Program-made: the position numbers and the translations under genes
Notes under the pieces: model-generated
What the model saw: only the letters and a program-made list of their open reading frames with translations
What the model was told of the DNA's origin: nothing
The model's database searches: none
Source of the DNA: a virus
Taxonomy: Duplodnaviria; Heunggongvirae; Uroviricota; Caudoviricetes
Direction: 5' to 3' (one strand)
IMG/VR virus record: IMGVR_UViG_3300024265_000032
Length of the DNA stretch: 64,000 bases
Part shown: one piece after another, positions 61,582-63,335 of the stretch
Layout: each line of letters starts with the position of its first letter
Numbering within the stretch: position 1 is the first letter of the stretch

Positions 61582-61795
61582 GATTGCGATTGCTGAGTTG
61601 TGTGGTGTGATTCAGGCGTTGATTTTGGAGATTGAGAAGATTCAGAGTCCAAAAGTGACTCTTCTCTCGACAGAACCGACAGTGCCCATAGAGACTCCAC
61701 AGATACCAGTAGCACGGCCAGAACAACCACTGAGGACGCCGTCGCTAGTAAGGCCAAACAGAAATCGTAAATTCAATGCAGGAGACGCAGAATAA
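61514..61795 (+). CDS. hypothetical protein (~93 aa) overlapping 3-prime end of hpt frame
   Basis: GGAGTGAAG-ATG; internal Met of track ORF 61415..61795. Confidence 0.35.
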   Translation: MSLEDVKKQLKAISRSAATGHPKIAIAELCGVIQALILEIEKIQSPKVTLLSTEPTVPIETPQIPVARPEQPLRTPSLVRPNRNRKFNAGDAE

Positions 61796-62763
61796 TGTTC
61801 CAAGTTGCCGAGCACACATGTGATGTGGTTCAAGTTGAACTGAAGTCTCATCCAAACGCAGACACATTGAGTCTCGTTATGGTCGGAGACTTCCAATGCG
61901 CAGTCCGTACTGACGATTGGAACGATGGCGATCTTGCGGTTTACATCCCGCCAGATAGCATTGTGCCAGACAGCAAAGAGTTTGAGTTTCTTGGCAAGCA
62001 TCGTAGAATCAGGGCTAGGAAGCTTCGTGGAGAATGGTCTGTTGGGTTGTTGATTCCAGCACCGATCGGAGCTAAGCTGGGCGACGACTTGATGGAGCAA
62101 TTGGGGATTGAACACTACGAGCCAGAGGTACATGGGCATTTCACAACTGGTGGTGAAAACGTTGCGTCTCCGAAGGGATTCTATCCCAAGTATGACGTGA
62201 TGAACTTCCGTAAATATTCACGGCTTTTCGAAGAAGGCGAAGAGGTTGTCATAACGGAAAAGATACACGGAGCTAATGCGAGGTTTGTATGTGTCAACGA
62301 TGTGGTTTACTGTGGTTCTCGCAACAACTGGAAGAAGGAAGACCCGAACAATCTGTGGTGGAAAGCTTACGCGCAAAATCCTCTTCTTGAGGCATGGATA
62401 CGACACCACCAAAATTTTACGATCTACGGAGAAGTTTTTGGACAAGTTCAGAATCTGAAGTATGGTGCAGTAAGTAACAGTCCTATCTTCTTTGCTGCTT
62501 TCGATATTCTGAATGGAGACCAGTGGTTGGATTATGATGAGGCTCACAAAATCGGTAATCCACTGCCGTGGGTACCTCTAGTTTACCGTGGTCCGTTTAA
62601 TAAAGATCAGGTTATTGAGTTTGCAGAAGGGGATAGTATCTATCCCGGTGCGGATCATCTTAGAGAAGGTGTCGTGATTAAACCAGTCCACGAACGAACA
62701 GACCCAAGGCTTGGCCGTGTCCAGTTGAAAGTCGTTGGAAATGGTTATCTGAGCAAGAGTTAG
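61795..62763 (+). CDS. ATP-dependent RNA ligase (Rnl2/T4 RnlB-like)
   Basis: motif I TEKIHGAN (KxHGxN, nucleotidyltransferase Lys), motif IV EGVVIK, motif V LKVVG. Confidence 0.7.
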   Translation: MFQVAEHTCDVVQVELKSHPNADTLSLVMVGDFQCAVRTDDWNDGDLAVYIPPDSIVPDSKEFEFLGKHRRIRARKLRGEWSVGLLIPAPIGAKLGDDLMEQLGIEHYEPEVHGHFTTGGENVASPKGFYPKYDVMNFRKYSRLFEEGEEVVITEKIHGANARFVCVNDVVYCGSRNNWKKEDPNNLWWKAYAQNPLLEAWIRHHQNFTIYGEVFGQVQNLKYGAVSNSPIFFAAFDILNGDQWLDYDEAHKIGNPLPWVPLVYRGPFNKDQVIEFAEGDSIYPGADHLREGVVIKPVHERTDPRLGRVQLKVVGNGYLSKS

Positions 62764-62771
62764 GAGAGATT

Positions 62772-63062
62772 ATGCCGTATATCCCAAAAGAAAGACGCAA
62801 AAAGTATGACGATTATGTCACTAGACTAGCCCACATACTGAACACCCTAGAGAGCAACGACGAACTCAGCGGGGAAATGAACTATGTCCTGTTCCGTCTT
62901 GCTAGGCTTCTCTCCGACGACGACTCTGGTGGTCAACGACGTTACGCAAGGATGGCCGTAGTACGATCTGCTCTAAGAGAAGCACATGACGAATTCGGTC
63001 GTAGAGTTCTCGTACCATACGAGAAAGAGAAGGAACGACAGAGCGGGGATGTTGAATTATAA
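62772..63062 (+). CDS. hypothetical protein (96 aa)
   Basis: ORF track. Confidence 0.5.
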   Translation: MPYIPKERRKKYDDYVTRLAHILNTLESNDELSGEMNYVLFRLARLLSDDDSGGQRRYARMAVVRSALREAHDEFGRRVLVPYEKEKERQSGDVEL

Positions 63063-63089
63063 GATTTTGGACAAGCCAAAATCAAAGAA

Positions 63090-63162
63090 GGGTTGGTAGC
63101 TCAGTTGGTAGAGCGCTAGCTTGAAGTGCTAGGCGTCGGGGGTTCAAGTCCCTCCTGACCCA
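63090..63162 (+). tRNA. tRNA-Phe (GAA)
   Basis: GGGTTGG-TA-GCTC-AGTTGGTA-GAGC-G-CTAGC-TTGAAGT-GCTAG-GCGTC-GGGGG-TTCAAGT-CCCTC-CTGACCC-A; clean cloverleaf; CCA not encoded. Confidence 0.8.
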
Positions 63163-63165
63163 TTG

Positions 63166-63256
63166 GAAGTGGTAGCTCAACGGTAGAGCTTGTCATAGGT
63201 CGCACCTACGCATAACTCCGGATAGTTGGTTATGAGTTCGAATCTCATCCACTTCC
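63166..63256 (+). tRNA. atypical long (91-nt) tRNA-like gene; anticodon unresolved
   Basis: acceptor GAAGTGG/CCACTTC, canonical D-arm TAGCTCAACGGTAGAGC and T-arm ATGAG-TTCGAAT-CTCAT, but 41 nt between D- and T-arms with no standard 5-bp/7-nt anticodon arm (only TAGGT-CGC-ACCTA and TAACT-CCGGAT-AGTTG hairpins). Confidence 0.55.
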
Positions 63257-63261
63257 ATTTA

Positions 63262-63335
63262 GGCGGTATAGCTCAATTGGTTAGAGCGTCGGATTGTCGA
63301 TCCGGAGGTTGCGGGTTCAAGTCCCGCTATCGTCG
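63262..63335 (+). tRNA. tRNA-Asp (GTC)
   Basis: GGCGGTA-TA-GCTC-AATTGGTTA-GAGC-G-TCGGA-TTGTCGA-TCCGG-AGGTT-GCGGG-TTCAAGT-CCCGC-TATCGTC-G. Confidence 0.8.

What the first reader, a model, noticed from the sequence alone, without database searches (positions are those of the whole stretch)
61795..63335. RNA ligase + tRNA cluster (+ distant PF10127-like NTase) suggests a tRNA repair/anti-anticodon-nuclease module
An Rnl2-like RNA ligase (KIHGAN motif I) lies immediately upstream of a three-tRNA cluster (Phe-GAA, an unusual 91-nt tRNA, Asp-GTC). It is next to HPRT. An RlaP-type Pol-beta nucleotidyltransferase, a family described in RNA-repair operons, is encoded at 28836..29759. By analogy with T4 Rnl/Pnkp countering PrrC, this phage may repair or replace tRNAs cleaved by host anticodon nucleases. 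No Pnkp is seen in the window.
Basis: inference. Interest (0 to 1): 0.55.

Follow-up and report, generated by a model that had tools for sequence, protein, structure and literature searches.

The report
Phage Rnl5 RNA ligase heading tRNA array
An uncultured large phage carries an intact nick-sealing RNA ligase of the Rnl5 (not Rnl2) family at the front of a tmRNA/tRNA gene block, a layout repeated in many phages and consistent with the already proposed idea that phages both repair and replace RNAs cut by host defences.

Summary
Window 61795-62763 encodes an intact 322-aa ATP-dependent RNA ligase. It is followed by a DUF6899 gene, then tRNA-Phe, an aberrant 91-93-nt tRNA-like RNA and tRNA-Asp. 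An RlaP nucleotidyltransferase is at 28836-29759, on the minus strand.

Across 70 dereplicated phage Rnl5 loci, tRNAs are 4-10 times denser downstream of the ligase than upstream. Within 10 kb, 37% carry Rnl1, RlaP, cRec or Macro genes. The ligase's N-terminal OB domain resembles Trbp111-type tRNA-binding domains.

The RNA/tRNA-repair reading is therefore plausible, and it has already been published in general form for jumbo phages. The specific T4 Rnl1/Pnkp analogy is not met here. No end-healing enzyme or Rnl1 is in the window, Rnl5 enzymes seal duplex nicks, and in some phages the gene sits among replication genes.

Verdict: a new member of a known kind, of moderate interest.

The parts
59860..59885 (+). 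Intrinsic-terminator-like hairpin (11-bp stem, 7 G-C pairs, T-run). Probable upstream boundary of the transcription unit.
   Evidence: No comparable + strand terminator is found until 63643.
59906..60220 (+). DUF5658 small membrane protein. It is the first gene of the block and is syntenic in relatives.
   Evidence: Pfam PF18902, 8e-07. The same family is upstream in L006, L010, L013 and L019.
60432..60782 (+). Phage-encoded one-piece tmRNA with tag peptide GESQFRMAA.
   Evidence: ARAGORN. Rfam RF00023, 137.4 bits against gathering score 47. A tmRNA is at the same position in L007, L008, L009 and L011.
60982..61581 (+). Hypoxanthine(-guanine) phosphoribosyltransferase.
   Evidence: Pfam PF00156, 3.9e-25. 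NCBIfam TIGR01203, 158.8 bits against cut-off 150. It is syntenic with the ligase in 6 of 70 viral loci.
61514..61795 (+). 93-aa ORF of unknown function. Its stop codon overlaps the ligase start codon by one base (TGATG).
   Evidence: The family is conserved directly upstream of the ligase in 9 loci. No Pfam match.
61795..62763 (+). Rnl5-family ATP-dependent RNA ligase, 322 aa. The N-terminal OB domain spans about residues 1-115 and the NTase domain about 125-322. The protein ends 10 residues after motif V, so there is no C-terminal domain.
62260..62277 (+). Motif I, KIHGAN. Lys156 is the predicted AMP-accepting nucleophile. Other catalytic residues: E213 (62431-62433), E291 (62665-62667) and K312 (62728-62730).
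   Evidence: The alignment to NgrRnl pairs these with K170, E227, E312 and K326 (positions). They are invariant in 18 and in 36 homologs. Their essentiality in NgrRnl is reported in PMC7261155.
62772..63062 (+). DUF6899 protein, 96 aa, three helices, function unknown. This is the gene that directly abuts the tRNA array.
   Evidence: Pfam PF21840, 4.5e-20. 49 close homologs. AF2 pLDDT 92. No PDB fold match. Its stop lies 1-27 nt from the first tRNA in the window, L008, L010 and L012.
63090..63162 (+). tRNA-Phe (GAA). No CCA is encoded.
   Evidence: ARAGORN. Rfam 63.4 bits.
63165..63257 (+). Aberrant tRNA-like RNA. It has an 8-bp acceptor helix and normal D and T arms, but 42 nt lie between the D and T stems. 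Its anticodon identity cannot be assigned.
   Evidence: Rfam tRNA 43.6 bits at 63166-63256. ARAGORN gives Ala-CGC, or Pro-AGG with a 19-nt intron. Fold. No single deletion restores a class-I cloverleaf. No relatives were found.
63262..63335 (+). tRNA-Asp (GTC). No CCA is encoded.
   Evidence: ARAGORN. Rfam 70.9 bits. tRNA-Asp follows DUF6899 directly in L012, L016 and L017.
28836..29759 (-). RlaP-family Pol-beta nucleotidyltransferase. It is unlinked here (32 kb away, opposite strand), but it belongs to the same phage RlaP family that lies 0.9-4.9 kb from Rnl5 in other phages.
   Evidence: Pfam PF10127, 58.5 bits against cut-off 23. An HMM built from ligase-adjacent RlaP genes hits it at 4.1e-43. 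Biochemistry of the family is in PMC12776372.

Best explanation
The gene encodes a catalytically competent Rnl5-type ATP-dependent RNA ligase. It is an accessory RNA-repair enzyme of a large (about 165-180 kb) uncultured phage.

It sits in one tightly packed, same-strand block: DUF5658, tmRNA, HPRT, a small ORF, the ligase, DUF6899 and three tRNA genes. This block is probably transcribed as a unit (inferred).

The chemistry is established for the family. Lys156 attacks ATP to form ligase-AMP, with E213 and E291 holding the catalytic metal and K312 holding the phosphates. AMP then passes to a 5'-phosphate end, and the 3'-OH of an RNA strand attacks to seal the break.

The biological role is inferred. 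The substrate would be a broken structured RNA, most likely a tRNA whose halves remain base-paired and so present a nick-like 3'-OH/5'-PO4 junction. The Trbp111-like N-terminal OB domain would help to dock it.

The phage would thus both replace RNAs (its own tRNAs and tmRNA) and repair RNAs hit by host ribonuclease defences. RlaP would restore a lost 3' nucleotide where needed. Breaks with 2',3'-cyclic-phosphate/5'-OH ends would need healing enzymes that are not in this window. Breaks made by metal-dependent nucleases could be sealed directly.
For: - An intein sits inside motif I of a 72%-identical ortholog. This indicates a conserved, selected active site.
- Packing is tight. There are 8 nt from ligase to DUF6899, 27 nt from DUF6899 to tRNA-Phe, and 2-4 nt between tRNAs. 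No + strand terminator lies between 59885 and 63643.
- In 70 dereplicated viral Rnl5 loci, tRNA density is 0.18-0.40 per kb in every downstream 1-kb bin and 0.00-0.08 per kb upstream.
- In those loci 176 tRNA/tmRNA calls are on the ligase strand and 26 on the other. 18 of 70 loci have a tRNA within 1.5 kb.
- By 50%-identity ligase clusters, 15 have more tRNAs downstream and 4 more upstream. My one-sided sign test gives p about 0.01.
- Where the ligase has moved within a relative's genome (L018), a tRNA-Glu again lies 395 nt downstream.
- Repair-associated neighbours within 10 kb: Rnl1 12/70, Macro 11/70, RlaP 6/70, cREC_REC 5/70. At least one of these is present in 26/70.
- Cultured phages show the same links. 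In Aeromonas phage 44RR2.8t, Rnl5 is 2.3 kb from rnlA and 4.6 kb from pseT. In CcrColossus, an RlaP-like gene is 1.4 kb upstream.
- Sequence searches give weak support for the same relationship: 1MKH at E 0.0096, and PF01588 in 6/18 members with best E 0.0038.
- Relatives in the window's lineage carry a separate NAD-dependent DNA ligase 1.7-2.3 kb upstream. DNA sealing therefore does not need this enzyme.
- Literature: RlaP adds 1-2 nt to RNA 3'-OH ends and helps restore function to repaired tRNA (PMC12776372). AriB of PARIS leaves 3'-OH/5'-P tRNA ends (PMC12409363). The jumbo-phage RNA-repair model is in PMC7824862.
Against: - No experiment links any Rnl5 enzyme to tRNA.
- NgrRnl and DraRnl prefer nicked duplexes and act poorly on single-stranded RNA (PMC4408790). 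In NgrRnl the OB domain is known to serve adenylylation (PMC7261155).
- DraRnl genetics points to DNA repair after irradiation (PMC5397189).
- The window holds no Pnkp, cRec, 2H, HD or Rnl1 gene, and RlaP is 32 kb away.
- The gene is absent from this position in L008/L009.
- 30 of 70 loci have no tRNA within 10 kb. Several of these sit among helicase, primase, RecA or DNA polymerase genes.
- Two ligase clusters contribute 129 of the 176 downstream tRNAs. The synteny statistic is not corrected for shared ancestry and has no random-gene baseline.
- The tRNA island also holds many unrelated small genes, so adjacency alone is weak evidence.
Confidence: 0.5

Rival explanations
1. The ligase is a DNA replication or repair enzyme. 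It would seal nicks whose 3'-OH side is ribonucleotide, such as unremoved RNA primers or ribonucleotide patches laid down during gap repair. This matches the biochemistry and genetics of DraRnl. Its position next to tRNAs would then be a by-product of lying in the accessory region.
For: - Rnl5 enzymes need an RNA 3'-OH strand but accept DNA on the 5'-PO4 side and as template (PMC4408790, PMC5397189).
- The DraRnl knock-out is sensitive to ionising radiation and reassembles its genome late (PMC5397189).
- In other phages the homolog lies between a UDG-like gene and DNA polymerase (L001).
- It also lies between helicase and primase/helicase (Tunturi_3), near primase/helicase (Pakpunavirus), and near helicase, primase and RecA families.
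- In 44RR2.8t it lies between gene 32 and frd/td.
- ATP-dependent or NAD-dependent DNA ligases are within 10 kb in 11 of 70 loci.
Against: - In the window's lineage the gene follows the structural module and lies in a tmRNA/tRNA block, not among replication genes.
- Relatives have their own LigA.
- The tRNA polarity, the Rnl1/RlaP/cRec/Macro neighbours and the tRNA_bind-like OB domain are unexplained by this reading.
- Even the replication-embedded Pakpuna-like loci carry an Rnl1 gene 4-6 kb away.
Confidence: 0.27
2. The ligase has no tRNA-specific role. It is a mobile accessory gene in a hypervariable region rich in homing endonucleases and inteins. Its place beside tRNAs reflects conserved genome architecture, with accessory and early genes and tRNA arrays sharing one co-directional block. 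Its substrate could be any RNA, or nothing of importance.
For: - The ligase is missing at this position in L008/L009 and present elsewhere in that genome.
- NUMOD4/HNH homing endonucleases and an intein occur around and in the gene.
- Neighbours vary widely.
- DUF6899, not the ligase, is the gene that stays attached to the tRNA array.
- The synteny test lacks a random-gene baseline.
Against: - The protein is highly conserved. There are 2006 database homologs, and the catalytic residues are invariant down to 32% identity.
- The relocated copy again has a tRNA 395 nt downstream.
- Association with Rnl1, RlaP, cRec and Macro recurs in separate lineages.
Confidence: 0.18
3. The ligase serves the phage's own RNA maturation. 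For example, it could rejoin the halves of the aberrant 91-93-nt tRNA-like RNA after removal of an intervening segment of about 19 nt, or process the tmRNA.
For: - ARAGORN's intron mode models the odd RNA as tRNA-Pro(AGG) with a 19-nt insert in the anticodon loop.
- The RNA lies 400 nt downstream of the ligase.
- Another over-long tRNA-like call lies 0.8 kb from the ligase in L021.
Against: - The intron model has a weak stem (two G-U pairs) and no residue 26.
- No single deletion of 17-22 nt gives more than 3 of 5 anticodon-stem pairs.
- The odd RNA is unique to this phage, while the ligase is widespread.
- No splicing endonuclease was found.
- The tmRNA is a standard one-piece form.
Confidence: 0.03

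Closest known systems
Rnl5 family nick-sealing RNA ligases (Deinococcus radiodurans DraRnl / DR_B0094; Naegleria gruberi NgrRnl, PDB 5COT)
   Same: - The domain order is the same: an N-terminal OB domain, then the NTase domain, with no C-terminal appendage.
- It passes the curated DR_B0094 model.
- The Lys nucleophile, motif III and IV glutamates and motif V lysine are conserved.
- Phage homologs of this family are already noted in the literature (PMC4408790).
   Different: - Identity to NgrRnl is only about 24%.
- Motif I is KIHGAN (as I recall, T4 Rnl2 has a similar KIHG motif) rather than the KLDG of NgrRnl. The counterpart of Asp172 is His158.
- Arg149 aligns with Asn, with an Arg two residues further on.
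- The context is a phage tmRNA/tRNA block rather than the Deinococcus radiation-response region.
Bacteriophage T4 RNA ligase 2 (Rnl2 family)
   Same: - It has the same in vitro substrate class, duplex nicks with an RNA 3'-OH strand (PMC5397189).
- It coexists with Rnl1 in one phage, much as Rnl5 does with Rnl1 in 12/70 loci.
   Different: - There is no Rnl2-type C-terminal domain.
- It fails TIGR02307 (21 bits against cut-off 197).
- It has an N-terminal OB domain that Rnl2 lacks.
T4 tRNA repair pathway (Pnkp plus Rnl1 countering the PrrC anticodon nuclease)
   Same: - Both are phage-encoded 5'-PO4/3'-OH ligases in phages that may face tRNA-cleaving defences.
- Relatives and other Rnl5 phages carry Rnl1 nearby.
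- 44RR2.8t also carries pseT.
   Different: - No Rnl1 and no Pnkp are in this window.
- Rnl1 is specialised for breaks in stem-loop loops, Rnl5 for nicks (PMC4408790).
- The target nuclease is unknown.
RNA-repair and tRNA-provisioning gene sets described for jumbo phages (Iyer et al. 2021, PMC7824862), including RlaP, cRec and Macro
   Same: The ingredients are the same: many tRNAs, ATP-dependent RNA ligases, RlaP whose distribution mirrors the ligases, cRec linked to ligases, Macro, and NAD salvage genes. All of these were seen around Rnl5 loci here.
   Different: - This genome is below jumbo size, and the ingredients are scattered.
- Only the ligase, RlaP, tRNAs and tmRNA are in the window.
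- The polarity (ligase at the 5' edge of tRNA arrays) and the tRNA_bind-like OB domain are points I did not find stated in the papers I could read.
Trbp111 / tRNA_bind (PF01588) OB domains (MetRS C-terminal domain, PheRS-beta B2, CsaA, EMAP II)
   Same: - It matches them weakly in sequence.
   Different: - The sequence similarity is marginal.
- In NgrRnl this domain is known to contact the ATP gamma-phosphate and promote adenylylation (PMC7261155).
- tRNA binding has not been shown.

Membership tests
Rnl5 (DraRnl/NgrRnl) RNA ligase | N-terminal OB domain preceding the nucleotidyltransferase domain | tested here: met
   [not shown]
Rnl5 (DraRnl/NgrRnl) RNA ligase | No C-terminal domain after motif V | tested here: met
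   Motif V Lys312 lies 10 residues from the C-terminus of the 322-aa protein.
Rnl5 (DraRnl/NgrRnl) RNA ligase | Covalent nucleotidyltransferase motifs with the lysine nucleophile and essential Glu/Glu/Lys | tested here: met
   K156, E213, E291 and K312 align with NgrRnl K170, E227, E312 and K326. They are invariant in the alignments. Their essentiality is reported in PMC7261155.
Rnl5 (DraRnl/NgrRnl) RNA ligase | Score above the curated family model cut-off | tested here: met
   TIGR02306 RNA_lig_DRB0094 gives 163 bits against cut-off 151.15.
Rnl5 (DraRnl/NgrRnl) RNA ligase | Mn-dependent sealing of 3'-OH/5'-PO4 nicks with an RNA 3'-OH strand | not testable with these tools
   This is a biochemical property, known only for DraRnl and NgrRnl (PMC4408790, PMC5397189).
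Rnl2 (T4 RnlB / kinetoplastid REL) | Rnl2-type C-terminal domain and a family model score above cut-off | tested here: not met
   [not shown]
T4-type tRNA repair system (Pnkp plus Rnl1) | Rnl1-type ligase (PF09511) present | tested here: not met
   An HMM built from 12 neighbour Rnl1 genes finds none in any window ORF of 50 aa or more. Rnl1 is present in relatives L013, L019 and 12/70 viral loci.
T4-type tRNA repair system (Pnkp plus Rnl1) | End-healing kinase/phosphatase (Pnkp or equivalent) | tested here: not met
   No kinase/phosphatase, 2H, HD or cRec family appears in the Pfam scans of about 85 window ORFs or in the cRec HMM search. Only 64 kb of a genome of roughly 165-180 kb is visible.
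T4-type tRNA repair system (Pnkp plus Rnl1) | A host anticodon nuclease that the system counters | not testable with these tools
   The host is unknown. The nearest cultured terminase relatives share only about 25% identity.
RlaP nucleotidyltransferase (PF10127) | Pfam model above cut-off | tested here: met
   58.5 bits against cut-off 23 for 28836-29759 (-).
RlaP nucleotidyltransferase (PF10127) | Gene neighbourhood with an RNA ligase | tested here: not met
   Here it lies 32 kb from the ligase on the opposite strand. The same phage RlaP family lies 0.9-4.9 kb from Rnl5 in 6/70 loci and 1.4 kb away in CcrColossus.
Canonical tRNA (for the RNA at 63165-63257) | Acceptor, D and T arms with conserved loop residues | tested here: met
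   The Rfam tRNA model gives 43.6 bits with those arms aligned at high posterior probability. The acceptor helix has 8 bp.
Canonical tRNA (for the RNA at 63165-63257) | A 5-bp anticodon stem with a 7-nt loop, joined to the D stem by one residue | tested here: not met
   There are 37 nt where the model expects 18. The best fold has a 4-nt connector, an interrupted stem and a 3-nt loop tip. No deletion rescues it.
tmRNA (RF00023) | tRNA-like domain plus a tag reading frame, scoring above gathering | tested here: met
   137.4 bits against gathering score 47, full model 1-374. ARAGORN reports the tag GESQFRMAA*.

The most novel reading that the evidence does not exclude
Rnl5 ligases, whose physiological substrates are still described as uncharted, are tRNA-directed nick ligases in phages. 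The N-terminal OB domain, which has the Trbp111/tRNA_bind fold, would dock on tRNA. The gene would be kept at the head of tRNA arrays as part of a co-transcribed 'repair and replace' unit against tRNA-cleaving host defences. That would give this widespread family (bacteria, phages, protists, fungi) its first natural substrate.

A far less likely extension (about 3%) is that the adjacent aberrant 91-93-nt tRNA-like RNA is matured by protein-dependent cutting and rejoining that uses this ligase.
Probability: 0.3. Interest if true: 0.65.

Novelty: new member of a known kind. Interest (0 to 1): 0.42.

Why it matters
Tested against tRNA-cleaving defences, this locus could help give the Rnl5 ligases a natural function.

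- **The open question.** The Rnl5 family is well characterised structurally and enzymatically. Its natural substrates are still unknown, and the only genetics points to DNA repair in Deinococcus.
- **What this locus and its relatives add.** Three independent comparative clues point to tRNA or structured RNA in phages:
  - Rnl5 genes sit at the 5' edge of tRNA arrays.
  - Rnl1, RlaP, cRec and Macro genes recur nearby.
  - The OB domain has the fold of dedicated tRNA-binding proteins.
- **Why it is timely.** tRNA-cleaving defences (PARIS, retron-PtuAB, PrrC, Cas13, Schlafens, Cas12a3) are being found rapidly. Some leave 3'-OH/5'-P ends that such a ligase could reseal without Pnkp.
- **What a positive test would show.** Phages would be countering these systems by repair as well as by supplying resistant tRNAs, and the Rnl5 family would gain a function.
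- **What the finding is today.** It is a correctly spotted but mis-classified ligase in a context that fits an already published model.

Tried and rejected
- **Rnl2 membership.** Rejected by the curated models and the domain architecture.
- **A ligase remnant in L008/L009.** The 162-aa ORF in the ligase's place is unrelated. The ligase of that genome is elsewhere.
- **The odd RNA as a class-I tRNA with a simple insertion or intron.** No deletion of 17-22 nt gives a proper anticodon arm. The ARAGORN intron model is weak.
- **Homology of the odd RNA to other long tRNA-like calls (L011, L021).** Alignment shows only generic tRNA features.
- **Searches for relatives of the odd RNA.** Nothing was found among 307 tRNAs of related loci, nor in the IMG/VR or metagenome pattern scans.
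- **The weak Rfam YrlA (Y RNA-like) hits over the tRNAs.** They score 26.7 and 22.1 bits against a gathering score of 69, and are explained by the tRNA-like modules.
- **Function for DUF6899.** The model is confident (pLDDT 92), but Foldseek against PDB gives no hit below E 3, and no paper mentions the family.
- **Close cultured relatives or a host.** The DNA search found only tRNA matches. The terminase is at most 26% identical to Bacillus and Microcystis phages.
- **End-healing enzymes in the window.** None was found.
- **Whether the NgrRnl structure paper already notes the tRNA_bind-like OB fold.** That paper is not held.

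
Full report
**What is at the coordinates**

The + strand ORF 61795-62763 encodes a 322-aa protein. It has a PHA02142-type OB domain (PF21189, residues 15-88) followed by an RNA_ligase nucleotidyltransferase domain (PF09414, residues 149-314).

Downstream, ARAGORN and Rfam agree on tRNA-Phe(GAA) at 63090-63162 and tRNA-Asp(GTC) at 63262-63335. Between them is a 91-93-nt RNA. It reaches 43.6 bits on the Rfam tRNA model, but only in the permissive search.

The HPRT call is correct: 60982-61581 passes TIGR01203. The RlaP call is also correct: PF10127 gives 58.5 bits. 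The RlaP gene is on the minus strand, however.

- A 96-aa DUF6899 gene (62772-63062) sits between the ligase and the tRNAs.
- A 93-aa ORF (61514-61795) has a stop codon that overlaps the ligase start.
- A full-length tmRNA lies at 60432-60782 (137 bits).

**Which ligase family**

The protein is not Rnl2-like in the family sense.
- NCBI's curated equivalog model for DR_B0094 (DraRnl) scores 163 bits against a cut-off of 151. The Rnl2 model scores 21 bits against a cut-off of 197.
- Against all PDB sequences, the only significant relatives of the single sequence are the Naegleria NgrRnl entries, aligned end to end.
- A family profile gives NgrRnl 5e-50 over positions 17-317. T4 Rnl2 gets 5e-7 over the NTase core only.
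- The protein ends ten residues after motif V, so it has no C-terminal domain.

These are the defining features of the Rnl5 family as set out by Unciuleac and Shuman (PMC4408790).

The residues shown to be essential in NgrRnl are K170, E227, E312 and K326 (PMC7261155). They correspond to K156, E213, E291 and K312 here. These residues are invariant across homologs down to 32% identity.

That test is therefore not triggered.

**Surroundings and relatives**

The window's 39-58 kb region is a structural module containing terminase and portal genes. A strong terminator-like hairpin at 59860-59885 follows it.

After the hairpin comes a same-strand block: DUF5658, tmRNA, HPRT, the small ORF, the ligase, DUF6899, three tRNA genes and a 191-aa ORF. 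The gaps are 8 nt, 27 nt and 2-4 nt. No further + strand terminator appears before 63643. Co-transcription is inferred from this layout and has not been shown.

No cultured relative is close. The terminase is at most 26% identical to any database phage.

Metagenomic relatives of 90-181 kb keep the same order:
- The core order is HPRT, small ORF, ligase, DUF6899, tRNA(s).
- A tmRNA lies upstream in several of them.
- Homing endonucleases are inserted in places.
- A Macro-domain gene lies between ligase and DUF6899 in L010 and L012.
- A dozen or more tRNAs are spread over the next 8 kb in L010.

In one relative (L011), the ligase carries an intein with a LAGLIDADG endonuclease exactly inside motif I, reading EKIHG|C...HN|CN.

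In L008/L009 the ligase is absent from this position, while DUF6899 and the tRNA remain. That genome's ligase lies elsewhere, and a tRNA-Glu is again 395 nt downstream of it.

DUF6899 is the gene most tightly attached to the tRNA array. Its stop codon lies 1-27 nt from the first tRNA.

**Is the ligase-tRNA link more than chance?**

I fetched 80 viral loci encoding homologs at 32-78% identity, each with 10-kb flanks. Dereplication at 90% nucleotide identity left 70.
- tRNA density is 0.18-0.40 per kb in every 1-kb bin downstream of the ligase. Upstream it is 0.00-0.08 per kb. The totals are 176 tRNAs downstream and 25 upstream, over similar amounts of sequence.
- 176 tRNA/tmRNA calls lie on the ligase strand and 26 on the other.
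- 18 of 70 loci have a tRNA within 1.5 kb, and 40 of 70 within 10 kb.
- Collapsed to ligase clusters at 50% protein identity, 15 clusters have more tRNAs downstream, 4 more upstream, 1 is equal and 14 have none. My one-sided sign test gives p about 0.01.

Three caveats apply. Two clusters supply 129 of the downstream tRNAs. Shared ancestry is only crudely handled. I had no random-gene baseline, because only flanks, not whole contigs, can be fetched.

**Other recurring neighbours**

I clustered all flank ORFs and searched with HMMs built from the clusters. The families were confirmed by Pfam. Within 10 kb of the ligase, the counts out of 70 loci are:

| Neighbour | Loci (of 70) | Note |
|---|---|---|
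| Rnl1-type ligase (PF09511) | 12 | |
| Macro | 11 | |
| RlaP | 6 | 0.9-4.9 kb away |
| cREC_REC (PF20274) | 5 | 18 nt downstream in L064 |
| NAMPT | 5 | |
| ATP-dependent DNA ligase | 8 | |
| NAD-dependent DNA ligase (LigA) | 3 | in the window's own lineage |

In total, 26 of 70 loci have at least one of Rnl1, Macro, RlaP or cRec.

The RlaP HMM was built only from those ligase-adjacent genes. It hits the window's RlaP at 4e-43. The window's RlaP is thus the same phage family, although it is unlinked here.

Cultured examples agree:
- Aeromonas phage 44RR2.8t has the Rnl5 gene 2.3 kb from rnlA and 4.6 kb from pseT.
- CcrColossus has an RlaP-like gene 1.4 kb upstream and tRNAs 2.8-4.2 kb downstream.
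- Tunturi_3 has an Rnl1 gene about 5 kb away.

Other loci place the gene among replication genes. These include a UDG-like gene and DNA polymerase in L001, helicase and primase in Tunturi_3 and the Pakpuna-like phages, and RecA.

**The OB domain**

Sequence searches give weak support for the same relationship. 1MKH scores E 0.0096 with the family profile. PF01588 matches 6 of 18 family members, with best E 0.0038.

This is a structural resemblance, not proof of tRNA binding. In NgrRnl the domain is known to contact the ATP gamma-phosphate and to promote adenylylation (PMC7261155). I could not check whether the NgrRnl structure paper already remarks on the resemblance.

**Mechanism**

The following steps are shown or established:
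- The gene is intact and the family is secure.
- The three-step ligase chemistry through Lys-AMP is established for the family (PMC4408790, PMC7261155).

The biological role is inferred. The enzyme would reseal 3'-OH/5'-PO4 breaks in structured RNA, most plausibly tRNAs whose halves stay paired. It would be expressed together with replacement tRNAs and a tmRNA.

RlaP adds one or two nucleotides to RNA 3'-OH ends and can restore function to over-trimmed tRNA (preprint PMC12776372). It could act before sealing.

The absence of Pnkp matters for cyclic-phosphate breaks made by PrrC, RloC and the colicins. It does not matter for metal-dependent nucleases. AriB of PARIS leaves a 3'-OH end and an expected 5'-phosphate end on tRNA (PMC12409363).

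I put this explanation at about 0.5. The rivals are:
- A replication or DNA-repair role at RNA-DNA junction nicks, about 0.27. It rests on DraRnl genetics (PMC5397189) and on the replication-module contexts.
- No specific link to tRNA, about 0.18.
- A role in maturing the odd tRNA-like RNA, about 0.03.

**The odd RNA**

It has a perfect 8-bp acceptor helix, which can also be read as 7 bp plus a G-1:C73 pair. Its D and T arms are normal. However, 42 nt lie between the D and T stems.
- RNAfold gives a five-arm, class-II-like shape. It has a 4-nt connector, an interrupted anticodon stem with CGC at a 3-nt loop tip, and a 5-bp extra arm.
- ARAGORN calls it Ala-CGC, or Pro-AGG with a 19-nt intron.
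- No single deletion gives a class-I anticodon arm.
- It lacks the G3:U70 pair that, from general knowledge, marks tRNA-Ala.
- It has no relative in 307 tRNAs from related loci or in two collection scans.
- The relative L010 has Phe followed directly by Asp at the same place.

It is a lineage-specific insertion of unknown function, possibly a degenerate tRNA.

**Comparison with what is known, and novelty**

The ligase is a new member of the Rnl5 family. Phage members of that family are already recorded (PMC4408790).

The idea that large phages combine tRNAs, ATP-dependent RNA ligases, RlaP, cRec and Macro to counter attacks on the translation apparatus is already published (PMC7824862). The role of phage tRNAs in evading tRNA-targeting defences is published too (PMC10264068).

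The finding does not qualify as a T4-type Pnkp/Rnl1 module, because two defining parts were tested and are absent from the window.

Two points go beyond the papers I could read:
- the polar placement of Rnl5 genes at the head of tRNA arrays;
- the tRNA_bind-type fold of the OB domain.

Both are leads towards the still unknown substrate of this family. Both need the controls and experiments listed under next steps.

Overall interest is moderate.

Noticed in passing
window 60432-60782 (+): A phage-encoded one-piece tmRNA with tag GESQFRMAA lies 1 kb upstream of the ligase. Relatives have tmRNAs at the same place with tags GEARLKMAA and DKVQLAMAA. No SmpB family appeared in the Pfam scans of the window.
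   Followed up: partly
L011 5929-7983 (ligase ortholog, 72% identical in the exteins): An intein with a LAGLIDADG homing endonuclease is inserted exactly inside motif I of the RNA ligase (EKIHG|C...HN|CNSRF). That is one residue after the conserved glycine and next to the AMP-accepting lysine.
   Followed up: partly
window 62772-63062 (+); L008 8001-8291; L010 8001-8291: DUF6899 is a highly conserved 96-aa three-helix protein (26 invariant positions in 27 sequences). Its stop codon lies 1-27 nt from the first tRNA of the array. It stays there even where the ligase is absent. It has no fold match and no literature.
   Followed up: partly
window 6830-6900 (-): ARAGORN calls a second tRNA-Asp(GTC) here, but Rfam does not report it at gathering threshold. 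The anticodon loop looks non-canonical (CCCC-AGTCG-GGGG).
   Followed up: no
L021 7132-7226: In a 568-kb contig, 11 tRNAs lie 0.8-4 kb upstream of the ligase homolog. The last is a 95-nt tRNA-like call with a four-base anticodon (tggg). It is not homologous to the window's odd RNA.
   Followed up: partly
window 27650-32353 (-): A minus-strand block holds Band_7/SPFH, MazG, an HNH endonuclease, NUDIX, an unknown ORF, RlaP, another unknown ORF and a C92 papain-like amidase. In relative L020, MazG and C92 homologs follow the ligase directly (9008-10875), so this block and the ligase are neighbours in another genome.
   Followed up: partly
L008 10325-11353; L011 10562-11581: Relatives carry a 340-aa class II aminoacyl-tRNA synthetase core inside the tRNA island. 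It matches tRNA-synt_2 and is closest to AsnRS/AsnA models, far below their cut-offs, with no anticodon-binding domain.
   Followed up: partly
window 22316-22927 (+), 20521-21789 (+), 26078-26887 (+): An RNase T / Rv2179c-like 3'-5' exo(ribo)nuclease, a DUF3326 protein (2e-89) and an R2K-clade ATP-grasp protein are encoded in the early/accessory part of the window. The exonuclease could bear on RNA end trimming, but this was not examined.
   Followed up: no
L013 9424-10506; L019 12490-13584; L023 15931-17028: A second, Rnl1-type RNA ligase (PF09511) lies 3.5-6 kb from the Rnl5 gene in close and distant relatives. The window ends 0.7 kb after the tRNAs, so whether this phage has one cannot be seen.
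   Followed up: yes
L023 6385-8298; L026, L027 (same family): Relatives of the window's lineage encode a full NAD-dependent DNA ligase (adenylation, OB and BRCT domains) 1.7-2.3 kb upstream of the Rnl5 gene. Other Rnl5 loci carry NAMPT and NMNAT-Nudix NAD-salvage genes.
   Followed up: partly
window 63135-63318 (+): There are weak Rfam YrlA (Y RNA-like) hits (26.7 and 22.1 bits against a gathering score of 69) across the tRNA cluster. They are most simply explained by the tRNA-like module of that model matching adjacent tRNAs.
   Followed up: partly
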